Part shown: positions 744 through 55,480 of the stretch, piece by piece
How the letters are laid out: each line of letters starts with the position of its first letter
Numbering within the stretch: position 1 is the first letter of the stretch
Assembly (NCBI GenBank): GCA_951406725.2
Contig: OX597824.1
Span: forward strand, 94,984,001-95,048,000
Direction of reading: 5' to 3'
Length of the DNA: 64,000 nt
Source of the DNA: Octopus vulgaris
Lineage: Eukaryota
Translations under genes and position numbers: made by a program
The notes under the pieces: generated by a model
The model's database searches: none
Told to the model about the DNA's origin: nothing
Seen by the model: only the letters and a program-made list of their open reading frames with translations

Positions 744-1127
744 GGCGCAGGAGTGGCTGTGTGGTAAGTAGCTTGCTAACCAACCACATGGTTCCGGGTT
801 CAGTCCCACTGCGTGGCATCTTGGGCAAGTGTCTTCTGCTATAGCCCCAGGCCGACCAATGCCTTGTGAGTGGATTTGGTAGACGGAAACTGAAAGAAGC
901 CTGTCGTATATATATATGTATGTGTGTGTCTGTGTTTGTCCCCCTAGCATTGCTTGACAATCGATGCTGGTGTGTTTACGTCCCCGTCACCTAGCGGTTC
1001 GGCAAAAGTAACCGATAGAATAAGTACTGGGCTTACAAAGAATAAGTCCTGAGGTCAATTTGCTCGACTAAAGGCGGTGCTCCAGCATGGCCGCAGTCAA
1101 ATGACTGAAACAAGTAAAAGAGAAAGA
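744..1127 (+). mobile_element. tRNA-derived SINE family S1 with CORE-like segment and internal microsatellite
   Basis: A box TGGCTGTGTGG, B box GGTTCAGTCCC, CORE-like CTTGGGCAAGTGTCTT, internal (TA)n(TG)n, 3' TAAAAGAG repeats. Confidence 0.9.
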
Positions 1128-1829
1128 TATATACATATATATACACACACACACACGCACGCATGCAGCACACACACAAAACAAACATGGCTAGAGTATT
1201 CGGCTCGAGCCAATGCTCAGAAACTGTTATGAAGATAAAACACTGTTTAAATAACATTGCAGGAAAATATCGTGGTTGGTACGAACTTTACTAATAAATA
1301 AATAGTTGAAGTAAAAAAAAAAAAAAAAATCTATTTTGGATCGATGATCGATGATGGCATAACATCCCCCCCTCCCCTGTTCCCTGGCATCTGTCTCTGT
1401 TCTTTGAAAATACTGGCTTCTTCACAGCTGGCCGGCATTATATTGGGGAATATTTAAACTAAGTCGTATACAATGCAGTCGGCCGATGTCTAGGTCACCG
1501 AAAGCTGCGACGATGTCAGACAGAACTTTCAGGGAATAAACACCTTGAAGAATAATAATCGGAAGGATTCCTCAAAGACATAAAAGGGAGAATGGTCCAT
1601 CCGAATTCCACCGACTTCATTTGTCTATGGAGACAATAAAGGTTTTAATATTGTTAATAGCACCGTCGAAATAAGTTGGGAAAAGTCATTCGTCTCAAAG
1701 AATGTCAAAGTATTTGGAAGCAGATCACCGAGAGAAAAGATGCAATTTTTATTATCTGCTGATGCGGCTGGTTGGTGGTAATCGATAGAAATAGGGAGGA
1801 GTTGCGTCATTTCCCCTCTAACCCTTTCT

Positions 1830-11393: not shown

Positions 11394-11793
11394 AGGTGCT
11401 GCAGGAGTGGCTGTGTGGTAAGTAGCTTGCTAACCAACCACATGGTTCCGGGTTCAGTCCCACTGCATGGCATCTTGGGCAAGTGTCTTCCGGGCCGACC
11501 AATGCCTTGTGAGTGGATTTGGTAGATGGAAACTGAAAGAAGCCCGTCGTATATATGTATATATATATATATATATGTGGGTGTGTATATGTTTGTGTGT
11601 CTGTGTTTGTCCTCCTAGCATTGCTTGACAACCAATGCTGGTGTGTTTATGTCCCTGTTACCTAGCGGTTCGGAAAAAGAGACCGATAGAATAAGTACTG
11701 GGCTTACAAAGAATAAGTCCCGGGGTCGATTTGCTCGATTAAAGGCGGTGCTCCAGCATGGCCGCAGTCAAATGACTGAAACGAGTAAAAGAG
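11394..11793 (+). mobile_element. SINE S1
   Basis: Full-length copy flanked by long direct repeats. Confidence 0.9.
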
Positions 11794-11847
11794 TATGTAC
11801 ATATGTTTATAGTTCAGTTGGCATTCACAACCACACACATCTCCCAC

Positions 11848-11915
<68 letters not shown>

Positions 11916-12212
11916 GCAAAGATAGGAGTTATGTACAGCTAGATTCCATATGTTTATAATCTTGTGCCCTACTTCAAGCTTTCTTACCAGCTGGTTCTAA
12001 TTTATTGGCACCTCTCAGCTAACTTGAATAAATACGGTTTCACTTTTTAATGATAATTCTTCCAGTTTTCAATAAACTCGTTGGAATTCCTTTCTGTTAC
12101 CTCATTAATGTCTTAATTTATTCCTCTTGGCCACATTAACAAAGACACAAACGTTTTTATATCTATCTATCTATCCATTCCTATATCCACCTGGATGGAT
12201 CTCCATATGCAT

Positions 12213-12590
12213 CTTTTATCTTATACTTGTTTCACTCATTTGACTGTGGCCATGCTGGAGCACTGTTTTGAAGGGTTTTAGTTGAACAAATAGGCCCCAG
12301 GACTTAATTTTTTGGCTGAACTGCTAAGTTATGGGGACATAAACACACCAACACTGATCGTGAAGCGGTGGTGGGGGGACAAAGATATGCACACACAGAC
12401 ACACCCACACACATTATATACACACACACACACACACAACAAGCTTCTTTCAGTTTCCGCCTACCAAATCCACTCACATGGCCTTGGTTGGCCCGAGGCT
12501 ATAGTAGAAGAGTTTTGGCCAAGGTGCCATGCTGTAGGACTGAACCTGGAACCATGTGGTTGGGAAGCAAGCTTCTTACCACACACCCAC
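12213..12590 (-). mobile_element. SINE S1 (older copy)
   Basis: Diverged reverse-strand copy. Confidence 0.8.
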
Positions 12591-13050
12591 GCAGGCATGG
12601 GTGTGTCGTAAGAAGCTTTCTTCCCAACCACATCATCATCATTTAACATCTGTTGTCCCTGCTAGCATGGGTTGGACGGTTTGACCAGATCTGGTAAGCT
12701 GAGGGGCTGCACCAGACTCCAGCCTGATTTGGCATGGTCTCTACAGCTGGATGCCCTTCCTAATGCCAACCACTCTGAGAGTGTAATGGGTGCTTCTCCT
12801 TGCCGCCGGCACAGGTGCCAGTTACGTGACACCAGTATCTGCCACAACTACGATTACACTTTGTTTGATGAGTCTTCTACTCAAGCACAGCCCATTGCCG
12901 AAGGTCTTGGTCATTTTATAGATACCTACTCATTCGAGGGTGACAAGTTCAAAAGAAGCTATGTCCTGGCACTTGGAATAAAGTACTCAAAGATAAATTT
13001 TGAGAATGAATCAAATGTTTAATCCGTAACCATAAGTTTGACAAAATATA

Positions 13051-13449
13051 GTTTGGTGTAAAGATTGTTTGCCAACATAACATGGCAGTCCTGGTTTAGG
13101 ACGAATGTTGTTGTAATTTAGCCCCAGGAGACATCGTCTACAGCTGGCTTTACAACACGATCTGTGTCCTTATGTTTTCGAACAAGGGAATCTAGCACCC
13201 CCACTCAGCTCAAAACAATATCTGTGTATCATGATTTCTGCATCATTTCCCTTCATCAGCACAGAATAATCGTTCAGCTAGAGGTGGCGCTACCAAATTC
13301 CCGTTCGAAATATATAGTTTGAAAATATAAGGACACAGATTGTGTTGTATAACCAGCTGGAGACTATGTCTCCTGGGGCTAAATTACAGCAACATTTGTC
13401 CTAAACCAGGACTGCCATGTTATGTTGGCATTTAATCTTAACTCCAAAG
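13051..13449. mobile_element. Fold-back (long inverted repeat) element, possibly TA-flanked
   Basis: 13070-13183 is near-complementary to 13318-13430. Weaker pairing continues inward (13176-13210 with 13276-13310) and outward to TA dinucleotides at 13049-50 and 13450-51. Confidence 0.75.
13221..13265 (-). ncRNA. Minimal type I hammerhead ribozyme motif at the apex of a fold-back element
   Basis: - strand reads tctgtg-CTGATGA-agggaaatgatgca-GAAA-TCATGA-TA|cacaga. Perfect 6 bp helix I, intact core, palindromic helix III (ATCATGAT), AUA triplet. Helix II is poorly paired. Confidence 0.6.
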
Positions 13450-14298
13450 TACTGTTGCTGAATATCTCTTGTTGTGAGATTTAAAAATAGTAATTTTCTA
13501 AAATACAGTTTGCTTCACCTATTGGCCATTGGGAACTCAGTTTAGCCATTGTTAATCTATTATTAGATGAAGGCCTCAACATACAGTTCTTGATGATTCA
13601 CTGTCACCTGTTGTAAAAGCTTGACGTGTGTGTGTCTGTGTTGTGCAGGAACAAATTGTGGTTACCTTCAACGTATCTAGGAGAGGAGGAATGACCCAAG
13701 TAACCAATGCCACCAGCATTGAAAACAAACATAAAAGGATGCTGATGCTGTGTCCACTTTGATTCAATAATTACATCTTTAGCATCAATTAACAGACCTG
13801 TTTGATCTGTATCTTTTGTGTGTCTGTAATTGTACAGATCTCTTTGCTCATGGTATCGTATCTTACCTAACAGTTAAAAATTACCATAAACGTTTACTGA
13901 TACAATTCACACAAAACGCTCTCAGTTCTACTCAATACCTGATAGCTCTCTTACGGTATTTCATCCTACCTATTTATAATTTCATATCTGCAGTCATCTG
14001 TTTTTATTCTCTCTCATCCATTCTCTTCCCATATGCTCTGGTTCACACACATTGTTATCTTATCTGTTTGTGTACGTAAACACTGACAGTTACAATACAG
14101 ACAACAATGGGAAAAACAAAAAAAATTAAATGAGTAATGACAATCTGTAACAGGAAGCTGCATTTTCATGCTAGAAATCTCTTAAGTTTGGAAGCTTTGG
14201 AATTTTATTGTTTTGATATCTTTTTGTTTAAAGTACCTGTATATCATAACAAATGAAGTACCATTAGTGATTACCTTTATCTTCGTATTGTAGGTTAA

Positions 14299-14520
14299 CC
14301 CTTTCGTTACCGTATTTATTTTGAGATGCTCTGTGTTTCTCTCAACGATTTTAGATATAACAAAGAATTTAGTACAATAGCTTAGTTATCATTAAGCTAG
14401 TGTTAGGAACATTAATTGTGACTAAGGTTTGGTGGAAGATTTTTATTCAGAACTTATGAAAAACAAGACATTTCTACTACAGAACCGGAGGCGGTTTCAG
14501 CCAGGTTGGTAGCGAAAGGG
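14299..14520. mobile_element. piggyBac-type MITE, family P1
   Basis: TIR CCCTTTCGTTACC...GGTAGCGAAAGGG with TTAA on both sides. Partial copies at ~15658-15744 and ~51255-51378. Confidence 0.88.
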
Positions 14521-14998: not shown

Positions 14999-15383
14999 AG
15001 GCATAGGAGTGGCTGTGTGGTAAGTAGCTTGCTGACCAACCACTTGGTTCTGGGTTCAGTCCCACTACGTGGCATCTTGGGCAAGTGTCTTCTACTATAG
15101 CCTCAGGCCGACCAAGGCCTTGTGAGTGGATTTGGTAGGCGGAAACTGAAGGAAGCCCGTCGTATATATGTATATATATATATTTATGTGTATGTGTTTG
15201 TTTCCCCAACATCACTTGACATCTGATGTTGGTGTGTTTACATCCCCGTCACTTAACGGTTCGGCAAAAGAGACCGACAGAATAAGTACTAGGCTTACAA
15301 AGAATAAGTCCTGGGGTCGATTTGCTCGACTAAAGGCGGTGCTCCAGCATGGCCACAGTCAAATGACTAAAAAGAGTAAAGAG
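14999..15383 (+). mobile_element. SINE S1
   Basis: Full-length copy flanked by a ~112 bp direct repeat. Confidence 0.9.
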
Positions 15384-15744
15384 TCTGTATTTCTTAACAC
15401 CGTGTGTCCATACAAGACGCTTTCTCGCGATTAATACTACAGTTTTGTGCCTTTCTACAATATATCTACATTGAGTAAGATCTATTTTTTAATGATATAG
15501 TGCCCTTGTTGCTTATGATGCTGAACTGTCGCTCCTGCCTCATCGTCTTTGCCAGTGATATAGAACTGATGAAGGGTTGCAAACTGCTTATCTTAAGACA
15601 TATAGGGTTTGTGATTTGTATTGACTTGGGATGTTATATGTAAGTTAAATTTCTTAACCCTTTTGATACCAACTCGGCTGAAACAGCTTCTGGCCCTGTA
15701 GTACAAATATCTTCTTTTCATAAGTTTTGAATTAAAATCTTCCA

Positions 15745-19270: not shown

Positions 19271-19652
19271 AGTGCAGGAGTGGCTGTGTGGTAAGTAGCT
19301 TGCTTACCAATGACATGGCTCCGGGTTCAGTCGCACTGTGTGGCACCTTGGGCAAGTGTCTTCCACTATAGCCTCGGGCCGACCAAAGCCTTGTGAGTGG
19401 ATTTGGTAGACGGAAACTGAAAGAAGCCCGTCGTGTATATATGTTTGTGTGTCTGTGTTTGTCTGCCCACCATCACTTAACATCCGATGCTGGCATGTTT
19501 ACATCCCCATAACTTAGCAGTTTGGCAAAAGAGACCAATAGAATAAGTACTAGGCTTGCAAAGAATGATTCCTAGAAACGATTTATTCAACTAAAAGTGG
19601 TGCTCCAGCATGGCCGCAGTCAAACGACTGAAACAAATAAAAGAGAAAAGAG
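19271..19652 (+). mobile_element. SINE S1
   Basis: Full-length copy. Confidence 0.88.
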
Positions 19653-20468
19653 CTTGTTACACACCAATTGTTGCCTTTTCACTTAACACAGAATTGGTAG
19701 TTTTATAAAAATCTCTCTCCCCCTCTCGCTCTCTCTTTGTATATAACTGTTTTGTGGGTTGGGTAAAATCCAAGCTGTGTCCTCTTGAAGCACATCTGCT
19801 TCTTCCAGTGTTACAGTCTGGTATGTAGTTGTAATTACGTGAGGTAAACCAGGAAGTTGGAAAATGTTTGCTGACTTCCTCTTTTAATGTGTGTATGTAT
19901 GCACGTATGTCATTGTTCAATTTTATTTCAAGATTTCCTGCCAAGAGAGAAAGAGCCGGTTTCTAACCTAGATCCAAGGCTCCTTCACTGGAATTTCAAT
20001 ATCAACTACAGTGTATTTTTGTTTGTGTGTATGTATGTGAAGGTGCATGGCTCAGTGGTTAGAGCATTGAACTTGTGATTGTGAGGTTGTGAGTTTGATT
20101 GCCGGACCATTTTTGATGTATGTATTTATGTATGTATCTCAGTTGTAGAATAGGTACACTGTGATCCTTTGTGTTGTAAGAGGGGACTAAAAGGGCTGGC
20201 ATCAAAAAGAAGATCCAGTGTAAAACACTGCTTCAGAGAACCTGTCCAACTCATGGTTACAGGAAAAAGTAAAACGATGATGATGATGATAATCATATAT
20301 ATATATATACAGTGCCCAGGTGCACCACAACTTGTCAAAAGTGCGTATAAAGCATATGCAGTAATGTACAAATGTCTGGGAAGCCAACAATGTATGAGTC
20401 AGATACATGCTTGCGTGTGTATGGAGGGGAGAAAATCAGGTGTAGTGTTGGTGAATCTCAGAAAGCAT

Positions 20469-20842
20469 GGAAGTGGCTGTGTGGTAAGTAGCTTGCTAAC
20501 CAACCACATGGTTCCAGGTTCAGTCCCACTGCGTGGCATCTTGGGCAAGTGTCTTCTGCTATAGCCCCGGGCCAACCAATGCCTTGTGAGTGGATTTTGT
20601 AGACGGAAACTGAAAGAAGCCTGTCGTATATATGTATATATATATATATATATATATGTAGTTTGTGTGTCTGTGTTTGTCCCCCTAGCATTGCTTGACA
20701 ACCGATGCTGGTGTGTTTATGTCCCTGTCACTTAGCGGTTCGGCAAAGGAGGCCGATAGAATAAGTACCGGGGGTCGATTTGCTCGACTAAAGGCAGTGC
20801 TCCAGCATGGCCGCAGTCAAGTGACTGAAACAAGTAAAAAAA
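20469..20842 (+). mobile_element. SINE S1 fused to a CR1 fragment
   Basis: S1 homology; inverted partner at 21085-21242. Confidence 0.88.
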
Positions 20843-20995
20843 ATATATATATAAGATATTCTATAATTATATACATAATTATAATAAGGGGTCAGCTAGA
20901 TGCCTCGCCACATACTGAATTAGAAATAGACACTAATGTCTTTTCTACCATAAAATCTCCAAGACAATAACACACTTTCAATGTAGGCAATGTAC

Positions 20996-55016: not shown

Positions 55017-55423
55017 AGGCGCAGGAGTGGCTGTGTGGTAAGTAGCTTGCTAACCAACCACATGGTTCCGGGTTCAGTCCCACTGCGTGGCATCTTGGGC
55101 AAATGTCTTCTGCTATAGCCCCGGGCCGACCAATGCCTTGTGAGTGGATTTGGTAGACGGAAACTGAAAGAAGCCTGTCGTATATATATATGTGTATATA
55201 TATGTGTATGTATGTTTTGTGTGTGTGTGTTTGTCCCCCTAGCATTGCTTGACAACTGATGCTGGTGTGTTTACGTCCCCGTCACTTAGCGGTTCGGCAA
55301 AAGAGACTGATAGAATAAGTACTAGGCTTACAAAGAATAAGTCCCGGGGTCGATTTGCTCGACTAAAGGCAGTGCTCCAGCATGGCCGCAGTCAAATGAC
55401 TGAAACAAGTAAAAGAGTAAAGA

Positions 55424-55424
<1 letters not shown>
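55017..55424 (+). mobile_element. SINE S1 (young, CpG largely intact)
   Basis: Near-identical to 744-1127. Confidence 0.9.

Positions 55425-55480
<56 letters not shown>

What the first reader, a model, noticed from the sequence alone, without database searches (positions are those of the whole stretch)
13051..13449. Rod-like ~400 bp fold-back element with a hammerhead ribozyme exactly at its apex
Seen: the whole element is an imperfect palindrome. Arms 13070-13183 and 13318-13430 pair, and pairing continues inward to the perfect helix tctgtg/cacaga. The apex on the - strand reads CUGAUGA-N14-GAAA-UCAUGA-UA, a complete HHR core with correct spacing to helix I and an 8 nt palindromic helix III. 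Established: minimal type I HHRs with palindromic helix III occur in Penelope-like elements and can act as dimers, while MITEs normally carry no ribozyme. Inference: this could be an undescribed non-autonomous element whose transcript folds into a viroid-like rod capped by a self-cleaving ribozyme, with the long arms extending helix I. Caveats: helix II is poorly paired in this copy, and helix I pairing is partly expected from the palindrome itself.
Basis: partly seen in the sequence, partly recalled or inferred. Interest (0 to 1): 0.85.

Follow-up and report, generated by a model that had tools for sequence, protein, structure and literature searches.

The report
Fold-back insertion of a hammerhead retrozyme
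This hairpin-shaped stretch is two shortened, head-to-head copies of a 354-base repeat that carries a predicted self-cutting hammerhead RNA, likely pasted in by a Penelope-type jumping gene; it is a known kind of element rather than a viroid-like rod, but its ends give direct-looking evidence of which machinery moves such repeats.

Summary
The palindrome and the hammerhead motif are real. The rod is not the unit. The unit is a 354-nt non-coding monomer with a type I hammerhead, present as roughly 2,000 insertions and sometimes in tandem: a non-LTR retrozyme. The window copy (about 13053-13499, 50 nt longer than reported) is two 5'-truncated monomers joined head to head, inside a 13-nt target duplication. 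One arm ends at monomer site A (about 299), the other at site B (about 350). That A/B pairing holds in 20 of 25 loci picked without regard to the ribozyme; 12 of their 23 fold-backs have no ribozyme. Inverted truncated copy plus one-sided tail is the published insertion signature of Penelope-like elements, and intact ones occur in this genome. This copy's helix II has decayed. Cleavage, circular RNA and the mobilising partner were not shown. New member of a known kind; interest 0.35.

The parts
13053..13499 (.). Whole insertion: two 5'-truncated monomers head to head (ends uncertain by 1-4 nt because of overlap with the target duplication)
   Evidence: loose ends of other copies pile up at 13058 and 13501
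13043..13055 (+). Left copy of the target-site duplication (13 nt, one mismatch; last 3 nt may belong to the element)
13500..13512 (+). Right copy of the target-site duplication
13049..13320 (-). Ribozyme-bearing arm, monomer positions 33-304, ends at site A, 94% to the family majority
   Evidence: L001 1499-1770
13317..13497 (+). Inverted arm, monomer positions 170-350, ends at site B, 94% to the family majority
   Evidence: L001 1767-1947
13448..13499 (+).
13317..13320 (.). Junction of the two arms, 4-nt overlap; out of register with the native stem, giving the 16-nt bulge in the rod
13221..13265 (-). Type I hammerhead: helix I, CUGAUGA, decayed helix II (13252-13239), GAAA, palindromic helix III, predicted cut 13227/13226
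13171..13316 (-). Native imperfect stem of the monomer (13316-13261 pairs with 13226-13171) with the ribozyme at its tip
   Evidence: fold of the family majority, mapped to the window

Best explanation
The element is a head-to-head pair of 5'-truncated copies of a 354-nt non-coding monomer with a predicted type I hammerhead (a non-LTR retrozyme), likely inserted by the reverse transcriptase-endonuclease of a Penelope-like element. Shown: monomer, tandem forms, fixed 3' ends A and B, variable 5' ends, target duplication, ribozyme motif on a native stem. Inferred: a tandem locus is transcribed; the hammerhead (perhaps as a dimer through palindromic helix III) cuts the transcript to monomers that would be ligated to circles; the Penelope protein binds the conserved 3' domain, nicks both strands of an AT-rich target about 10 nt apart, and primes one cDNA at site A from one nick and one at site B from the other; both stop early and are joined at their truncated ends. 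The template is a circle or an uncut multimer, because arms run through the cut site. The rod is a by-product of insertion; this copy is decaying and is probably a poor ribozyme.
For: Monomer and tandems: core-to-core period 352-353 nt, 354-nt majority; 35 of 119 loci cross the monomer junction, 4 of 119 hold two whole cores in tandem (the sample is enriched for junctions). Ends: 64 of 97 loci are A/B, 1 A/A, 0 B/B; ribozyme-blind sample 20 of 25 A/B, 2 B/B, 1 A/A, 2 solo (20 of 23 against 50%, p about 2e-4 by hand). Exact flank match of 7 nt or more in 46 of 64 A/B loci against 7.4% of 1024 mismatched pairs. 16 arms cross the cut site, 2 start at it, of 18 that reach it. Arms of one insertion share 6.9% of private variants against 1.9% across insertions. 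Published signature: inverted 5'-truncated copy plus tail at one end (PMC8557442, passages); two internal RT start sites, both strands nicked and extended, AT-rich target, ribozyme cleavage not needed (PMC11167929, parts 1-2 of 4). Intact 781-aa RT + GIY-YIG frames in this genome; one such element has a perfect 766-bp inverted repeat. Selection on the ribozyme: across three families 8 of 10 core letters are identical, the other two covary (C3-G8 to U3-A8), while the stem strands share 8 of 57 and 15 of 56 letters yet pair in each family, z -6 to -8.
Against: No autonomous element with a homologous terminal repeat among 29 GIY-YIG loci. The tail is 50-55 nt, longer than the published 30-40. Within the family the core (96.6%) is barely more conserved than flanks (95.5%, 94.9%), as expected for neutral decay but no support. 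Rfam gives no hammerhead hit. RNA reads show no pile-up at the cut site, and depth near monomer 20-40 is about 30-fold below the peak, so no dominant free circle in those libraries. The base of helix II is A.G, not the usual G-C.
Confidence: 0.85

Rival explanations
1. The copies are only the truncated terminal repeats (pseudo-LTRs) of an autonomous Penelope-like element not yet found, with no independent non-autonomous RNA.
For: Same insertion signature; most Penelope insertions are 5'-truncated (PMC8557442, passages). Only 29 GIY-YIG loci of 6136 candidates were examined.
Against: Upstream of monomer position 1 lies the 3' end of another monomer in 35 of 119 loci, not a reading frame; both sister families also close on themselves as 359-360-nt monomers.
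Confidence: 0.08
2. One reading: the ~400-nt rod is the mobile unit, a viroid-like RNA capped by the ribozyme, and the arms are kept to extend helix I.
For: Very stable rod; 34 of 35 two-arm loci picked by likeness to the window have one ribozyme near the axis; reads that change strand exist in RNA runs.
Against: That sample is selected. In the ribozyme-blind sample fold-backs span 139-672 nt, 12 of 23 have no core and 2 have two; junctions differ; arms diverge independently; the monomer folds as one long stem plus a branched domain, not a rod.
Confidence: 0.04
3. A MITE or fold-back DNA transposon in which the hammerhead motif is a passenger.
For: Short, non-coding, palindromic, thousands of copies, target duplications.
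Against: Ends are unequal by ~52 nt, target duplications vary in length, interiors vary, tandem head-to-tail monomers exist, and the core covaries across families.
Confidence: 0.02

Closest known systems
Non-LTR retrozymes of animals (Cervera and de la Pena 2020, PMC7229834; Li et al. 2026, 10.64898/2026.07.22.740005)
   Same: Non-coding ~350-nt monomer with a type I hammerhead, tandem forms, no LTR, target duplications longer than 4 bp, coexisting Penelope-like elements; mussel repeats are 350-390 bp.
   Different: Here most insertions are head-to-head fold-backs with A/B ends rather than tandem arrays, and over half lack the ribozyme; 'inverted' does not occur in the main text of PMC7229834. 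Circular RNA and cleavage were shown there, not here.
Penelope-like element insertions (Craig et al. 2021, PMC8557442; Frangieh et al. 2024, PMC11167929)
   Same: Inverted 5'-truncated copy, tail at one end, two fixed 3' ends, AT-rich targets, hammerhead not at an end of the copy.
   Different: No reading frame; tail 50-55 nt rather than 30-40; each insertion pairs one A end with one B end, whereas the in vitro work saw no difference in start site between strands.
Canonical metazoan type I hammerhead (Cervera and de la Pena 2014, PMC4209133, passages)
   Same: 6-bp helix I, short helix II, palindromic helix III; the U3-A8 core variant of sister family 2 is described there.
   Different: Three G-C pairs plus a variable closing pair at the base of helix II (A.G, A-U, C.A in the three families); helix I extended to 42-49 pairs; no Rfam hit.
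MITEs / viroid-like rods (recalled)
   Same: Outward look of a long hairpin.
   Different: Unequal ends, variable interior, branched monomer, one ribozyme polarity.

Membership tests
Type I hammerhead ribozyme | Core CUGANGA, GAAA, UH with helix I closing the cut site | tested here: met
   intact core in 59 of 79 family segments
Type I hammerhead ribozyme | Paired helix II (family) | tested here: met
   three G-C pairs in the majority, paired in 48 of 79 segments; kept in both sister families
Type I hammerhead ribozyme | Paired helix II (this copy) | tested here: not met
   no fold, 0 kcal/mol
Type I hammerhead ribozyme | Match to an Rfam hammerhead model | tested here: not met
   no hit at E<=10 in window 12000-14500 or five loci
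Type I hammerhead ribozyme | Self-cleavage | not testable with these tools
   no read-end pile-up at the site in three RNA runs, uninformative for fragmented libraries
Non-LTR retrozyme | Tandem units of 150-450 bp each with a type I hammerhead | tested here: met
   period 352-353; 4 of 119 loci with two whole cores in tandem
Non-LTR retrozyme | Non-coding, low GC | tested here: met
   no frame of 110 aa or more over the element; 41% GC in the 2-kb bin
Non-LTR retrozyme | Target duplication longer than 4 bp | tested here: met
   46 of 64 against 7.4% control; 13 nt here
Non-LTR retrozyme | Expressed as monomer circular RNA | tested here: inconclusive
   family reads present, 59-65% run on into other sequence, uneven depth; library selection unknown
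Penelope-like element (autonomous) | RT + GIY-YIG reading frame | tested here: not met
   none in the element; such frames lie elsewhere in the genome
Penelope-mobilised element | Inverted 5'-truncated copy with a tail at one end | tested here: met
Penelope-mobilised element | Sequence likeness to the terminal repeat of an autonomous partner | tested here: inconclusive
   none in 29 GIY-YIG loci; sister family 2 shares the U3-A8 core and helix III with the 781-aa elements
MITE | Equal terminal inverted repeats, fixed length and fixed target duplication | tested here: not met
Viroid-like rod RNA | Unit of fixed length that folds as a rod | tested here: not met
   monomer is branched; fold-backs vary 139-672 nt
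Viroid-like rod RNA | RNA-to-RNA replication | not testable with these tools
   no data

The most novel reading that the evidence does not exclude
These three retrozyme families record a coupled two-site mechanism: one Penelope protein dimer on one circular RNA primes site A from one nick and site B from the other, so each insertion is a ready-made double-stranded-RNA gene. The ribozyme's long helix I and shared palindromic helix III let parasite and autonomous element cut each other in trans, and thousands of resulting hairpins feed A-to-I editing in the host transcriptome.
Probability: 0.15. Interest if true: 0.65.

Novelty: new member of a known kind. Interest (0 to 1): 0.35.

Why it matters
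That Penelope-like elements move animal retrozymes has been argued from co-occurrence and likeness to terminal repeats (PMC7229834; 10.64898/2026.07.22.740005). This family carries the mechanical signature itself: inverted truncated copy, one-sided tail, ~10-nt target duplication. Short, abundant, AT-rich-targeted copies make the two start sites countable, and the strict A-with-B pairing is a testable constraint on how Penelope proteins finish an insertion. The genome also holds intact candidate enzymes for an in vitro test. As a single locus it is an ordinary decayed repeat copy.

Tried and rejected
Rfam scans: no hammerhead hit. Core-versus-flank conservation within the family: no useful difference, since copies decay after insertion; the comparison across families was used instead. 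Search for the autonomous partner: profile of the three families over 29 GIY-YIG loci hit only neighbouring retrozyme insertions. Sequencing-run search: no RNA holder listed on record; three raw RNA runs with the same species label as holders were laid instead. No RNA depth on this locus's unique flanks in one run read to about 6%; the run may be another individual or species, so this says little. An empty orthologous site was not seen in three contig sets. The flank of the most expressed copy was not found in G000 at 1 or 3 mismatches, so the A>G excess could not be tested against DNA. The tool alignment A1 misregisters helix I of family 2 by 2 nt, so pair counts were not run on it. Earlier findings: nothing. 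Supplement of PMC7229834 could not be read and bioRxiv supplements are closed; either may list this family. Literature searches showed no paper on this family; Repbase and Dfam were not available.

Full report
Observation. The sequence is as described. The arms match at 104 of 114 positions, the minus strand folds as a rod with z -23, and the hammerhead motif lies at 13265-13221 with the predicted cut between 13227 and 13226. The strict motif appeared once in 100 shuffled windows. Helix II does not fold in this copy. Rfam found no hammerhead here or in five other loci. The host is a 2.8-Gb animal genome; its SINEs look like those of octopus from memory, which I did not test but used to choose literature terms.

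The unit. A search of the genome gave 2,942 first-look candidates, 40 scored; the best match per locus was 83-90% identical. A 28-mer has 1,347 exact matches and is exact in 64 of 185 arms, so about 3,900 arms or 2,000 insertions (rough). Tandem loci show a ribozyme period of 352-353 nt, and pile-ups give a 354-nt monomer with the core at 94 and the cut after 126. Mapped on it, the window copy is a minus-strand arm 33-304 and a plus-strand arm 170-350. It therefore ends near 13499, and a 13-nt duplication with one mismatch flanks it.

Architecture. 3' ends are fixed and 5' ends are not: of 287 segments, 105 end at 291-310 (A) and 147 at 341-354 (B, which includes internal tandem junctions), while 5' ends spread along the monomer. 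Of 97 loci (3 duplicates dropped from 100), 64 have one A and one B end, one has A/A, none B/B; the rest have an unclassified or 5' end. Flanks share 7 nt or more exactly in 46 of those 64, against 7.4% of 1,024 mismatched pairs. Because the first 40 loci were chosen by likeness to the window, I took 25 distinct loci (30 hits, 5 duplicates) by a 3' motif far from the ribozyme. Of these 23 are fold-backs, 20 are A/B, 12 fold-backs have no ribozyme, 9 have one and 2 have two; spans of the fold-backs run from 139 to 672 nt. Caveats: they come from the first 5.6 Mb of one contig, and two-armed loci have two chances to be picked. Arms of one insertion share 19 of 274 private variants (6.9%) against 1.9% across insertions: a common template or some conversion, but no upkeep of the rod.

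Ribozyme. The family majority has a 6-bp helix I, an internal loop, three G-C pairs in helix II with an A.G at the base, a hexaloop, and an 8-nt palindromic helix III. Core, helix I and helix II are all intact in 29 of 79 segments. Within the family the core is 96.6% conserved against 95.5% and 94.9% for flanks; CpG sites are at 72.9%. That is decay after insertion and neither supports nor refutes. Two sister families, found beside Penelope loci and each with about 2,800-2,900 candidates, give the real test. Their monomers are 360 and 359 nt and 51-60% alike. Eight of 10 core letters are identical and the other two covary as C3-G8 to U3-A8, a variant reported in PMC4209133 (passages). Helix I and III letters differ but stay paired and palindromic. 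The strands around the ribozyme share only 8 of 57 and 15 of 56 letters, yet form 49, 42 and 43 pairs, z -7.9, -7.6, -6.3. The 3' domain holding A and B is the best-kept long region, 79 of 172. So the ribozyme sits at the apex because of a native stem of the monomer, not because of the outer arms.

Mechanism. Craig et al. (PMC8557442, passages) describe Penelope-like insertions with an inverted 5'-truncated copy and a 30-40-bp tail at one end. Frangieh et al. (PMC11167929, parts 1-2 of 4) show nicking and extension of both strands at AT-rich DNA, two internal RT start sites that delimit the tail, and no need for ribozyme cleavage. The data here fit: two starts (A, B), one from each nick, early stops, joined ends. 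Of 18 arms that reach the cut site in the blind sample, 16 cross it and 2 start at it, so the template was circular or uncut. The genome has many GIY-YIG frames, some intact at 781 aa with RT and the CX2-5CxxC linker of Neptune/Nematis type. Their terminal repeats carry a hammerhead with the U3-A8 core and the same helix III as sister family 2. No sequence homology to the monomer was found in 29 such loci, so the partner is a candidate only. Cleavage, circularisation and priming are inferred.

RNA. In three RNA runs 1,433-1,864 reads of 11.5-12.9 million fit the monomer; 59-65% run on into other sequence, both directions are about equal, depth is about 30-fold lower near monomer 20-40 than at the peak, and no ends pile up. 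This looks like copies carried inside host transcripts, not a dominant circle; selection of the libraries is unknown. The window locus has no depth on its unique flanks in the one run laid.

Comparison. The element meets the sequence features of non-LTR retrozymes (PMC7229834: parts 2 and 4 of 6, section 14 and passages; 10.64898/2026.07.22.740005: parts 1-3 of 5) and the insertion signature of Penelope-like elements. It fails MITE and viroid-rod tests. In what I read, the link between retrozymes and Penelope elements rests on co-occurrence and terminal-repeat likeness; I did not see the inverted-plus-tail signature or the A-with-B rule reported for a retrozyme (searches; supplements unseen; Repbase and Dfam not available). 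PMC4209133 does note paired hammerheads on opposite strands 100-700 bp apart.

Verdict. A real feature, explained by known parts: new member of a known kind, interest 0.35, confidence 0.85 in the mechanism's outline.

Noticed in passing
L159:5437-5990 and L161-L183; L155:5577-5821 and L185-L207: Two sister retrozyme families (360 and 359 nt), each with about 2,800-2,900 candidates; family 2 is younger (97-99% to its majority) and has the U3-A8 core, so it is the better one for activity tests.
   Followed up: yes
L151:430-5672, L152, L153: Intact-looking Penelope-like elements: 781-aa RT + GIY-YIG frame, 456-bp terminal repeats 99.3% alike in L151, hammerhead with U3-A8 core and the same helix III palindrome as family 2; an upstream 333-378-aa frame (the 359-aa one of L151 has no Pfam match).
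   Followed up: partly
L155:1821-4983: A Penelope-like copy with a perfect 766-bp inverted repeat, the same fold-back architecture in a coding element; its ribozyme family has a U.U at the base of helix II (L104:2377).
   Followed up: partly
L031:2760-3113: RNA reads show 19-22 A>G places against 8-10 T>C; nine A>G sites at 23-36% where genomic copies have 0-5%. Could be A-to-I editing of a fold-back transcript or alleles of one highly expressed copy whose flank is not in G000.
   Followed up: partly
family 1, 26 CpG positions: CpG sites are 72.9% conserved against 95% elsewhere, which suggests germ-line methylation of these copies.
   Followed up: no
L050, L051, L054, L058, L065, L067: Fold-backs with two facing ribozymes; many arms stop at monomer 67-91, just past the core, as if the stem stalls reverse transcription (sample chosen by the core motif, so biased).
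   Followed up: no
L159:2968-4752: Another repeat: three tandem 594-bp units, over 99% alike, with inverted pieces.
   Followed up: no
L152:5530 (-): A second hammerhead-like motif on the strand opposite a Penelope terminal repeat.
   Followed up: no
L029:1950-2520: Sequence between two family pieces that resembles a mariner-type transposase fragment (recalled, untested).
   Followed up: no
window 752-1143, 11418-11814, 12400-12800, 15008-15405, 19279-19666, 20472-20853, 55026-55438 and others: Many copies of SINE-like repeats and long microsatellites throughout the window.
   Followed up: no
window 10773 (-): Weak hammerhead-like motif with a 4-bp helix I; it fails the strict scan and is probably chance.
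   Followed up: partly
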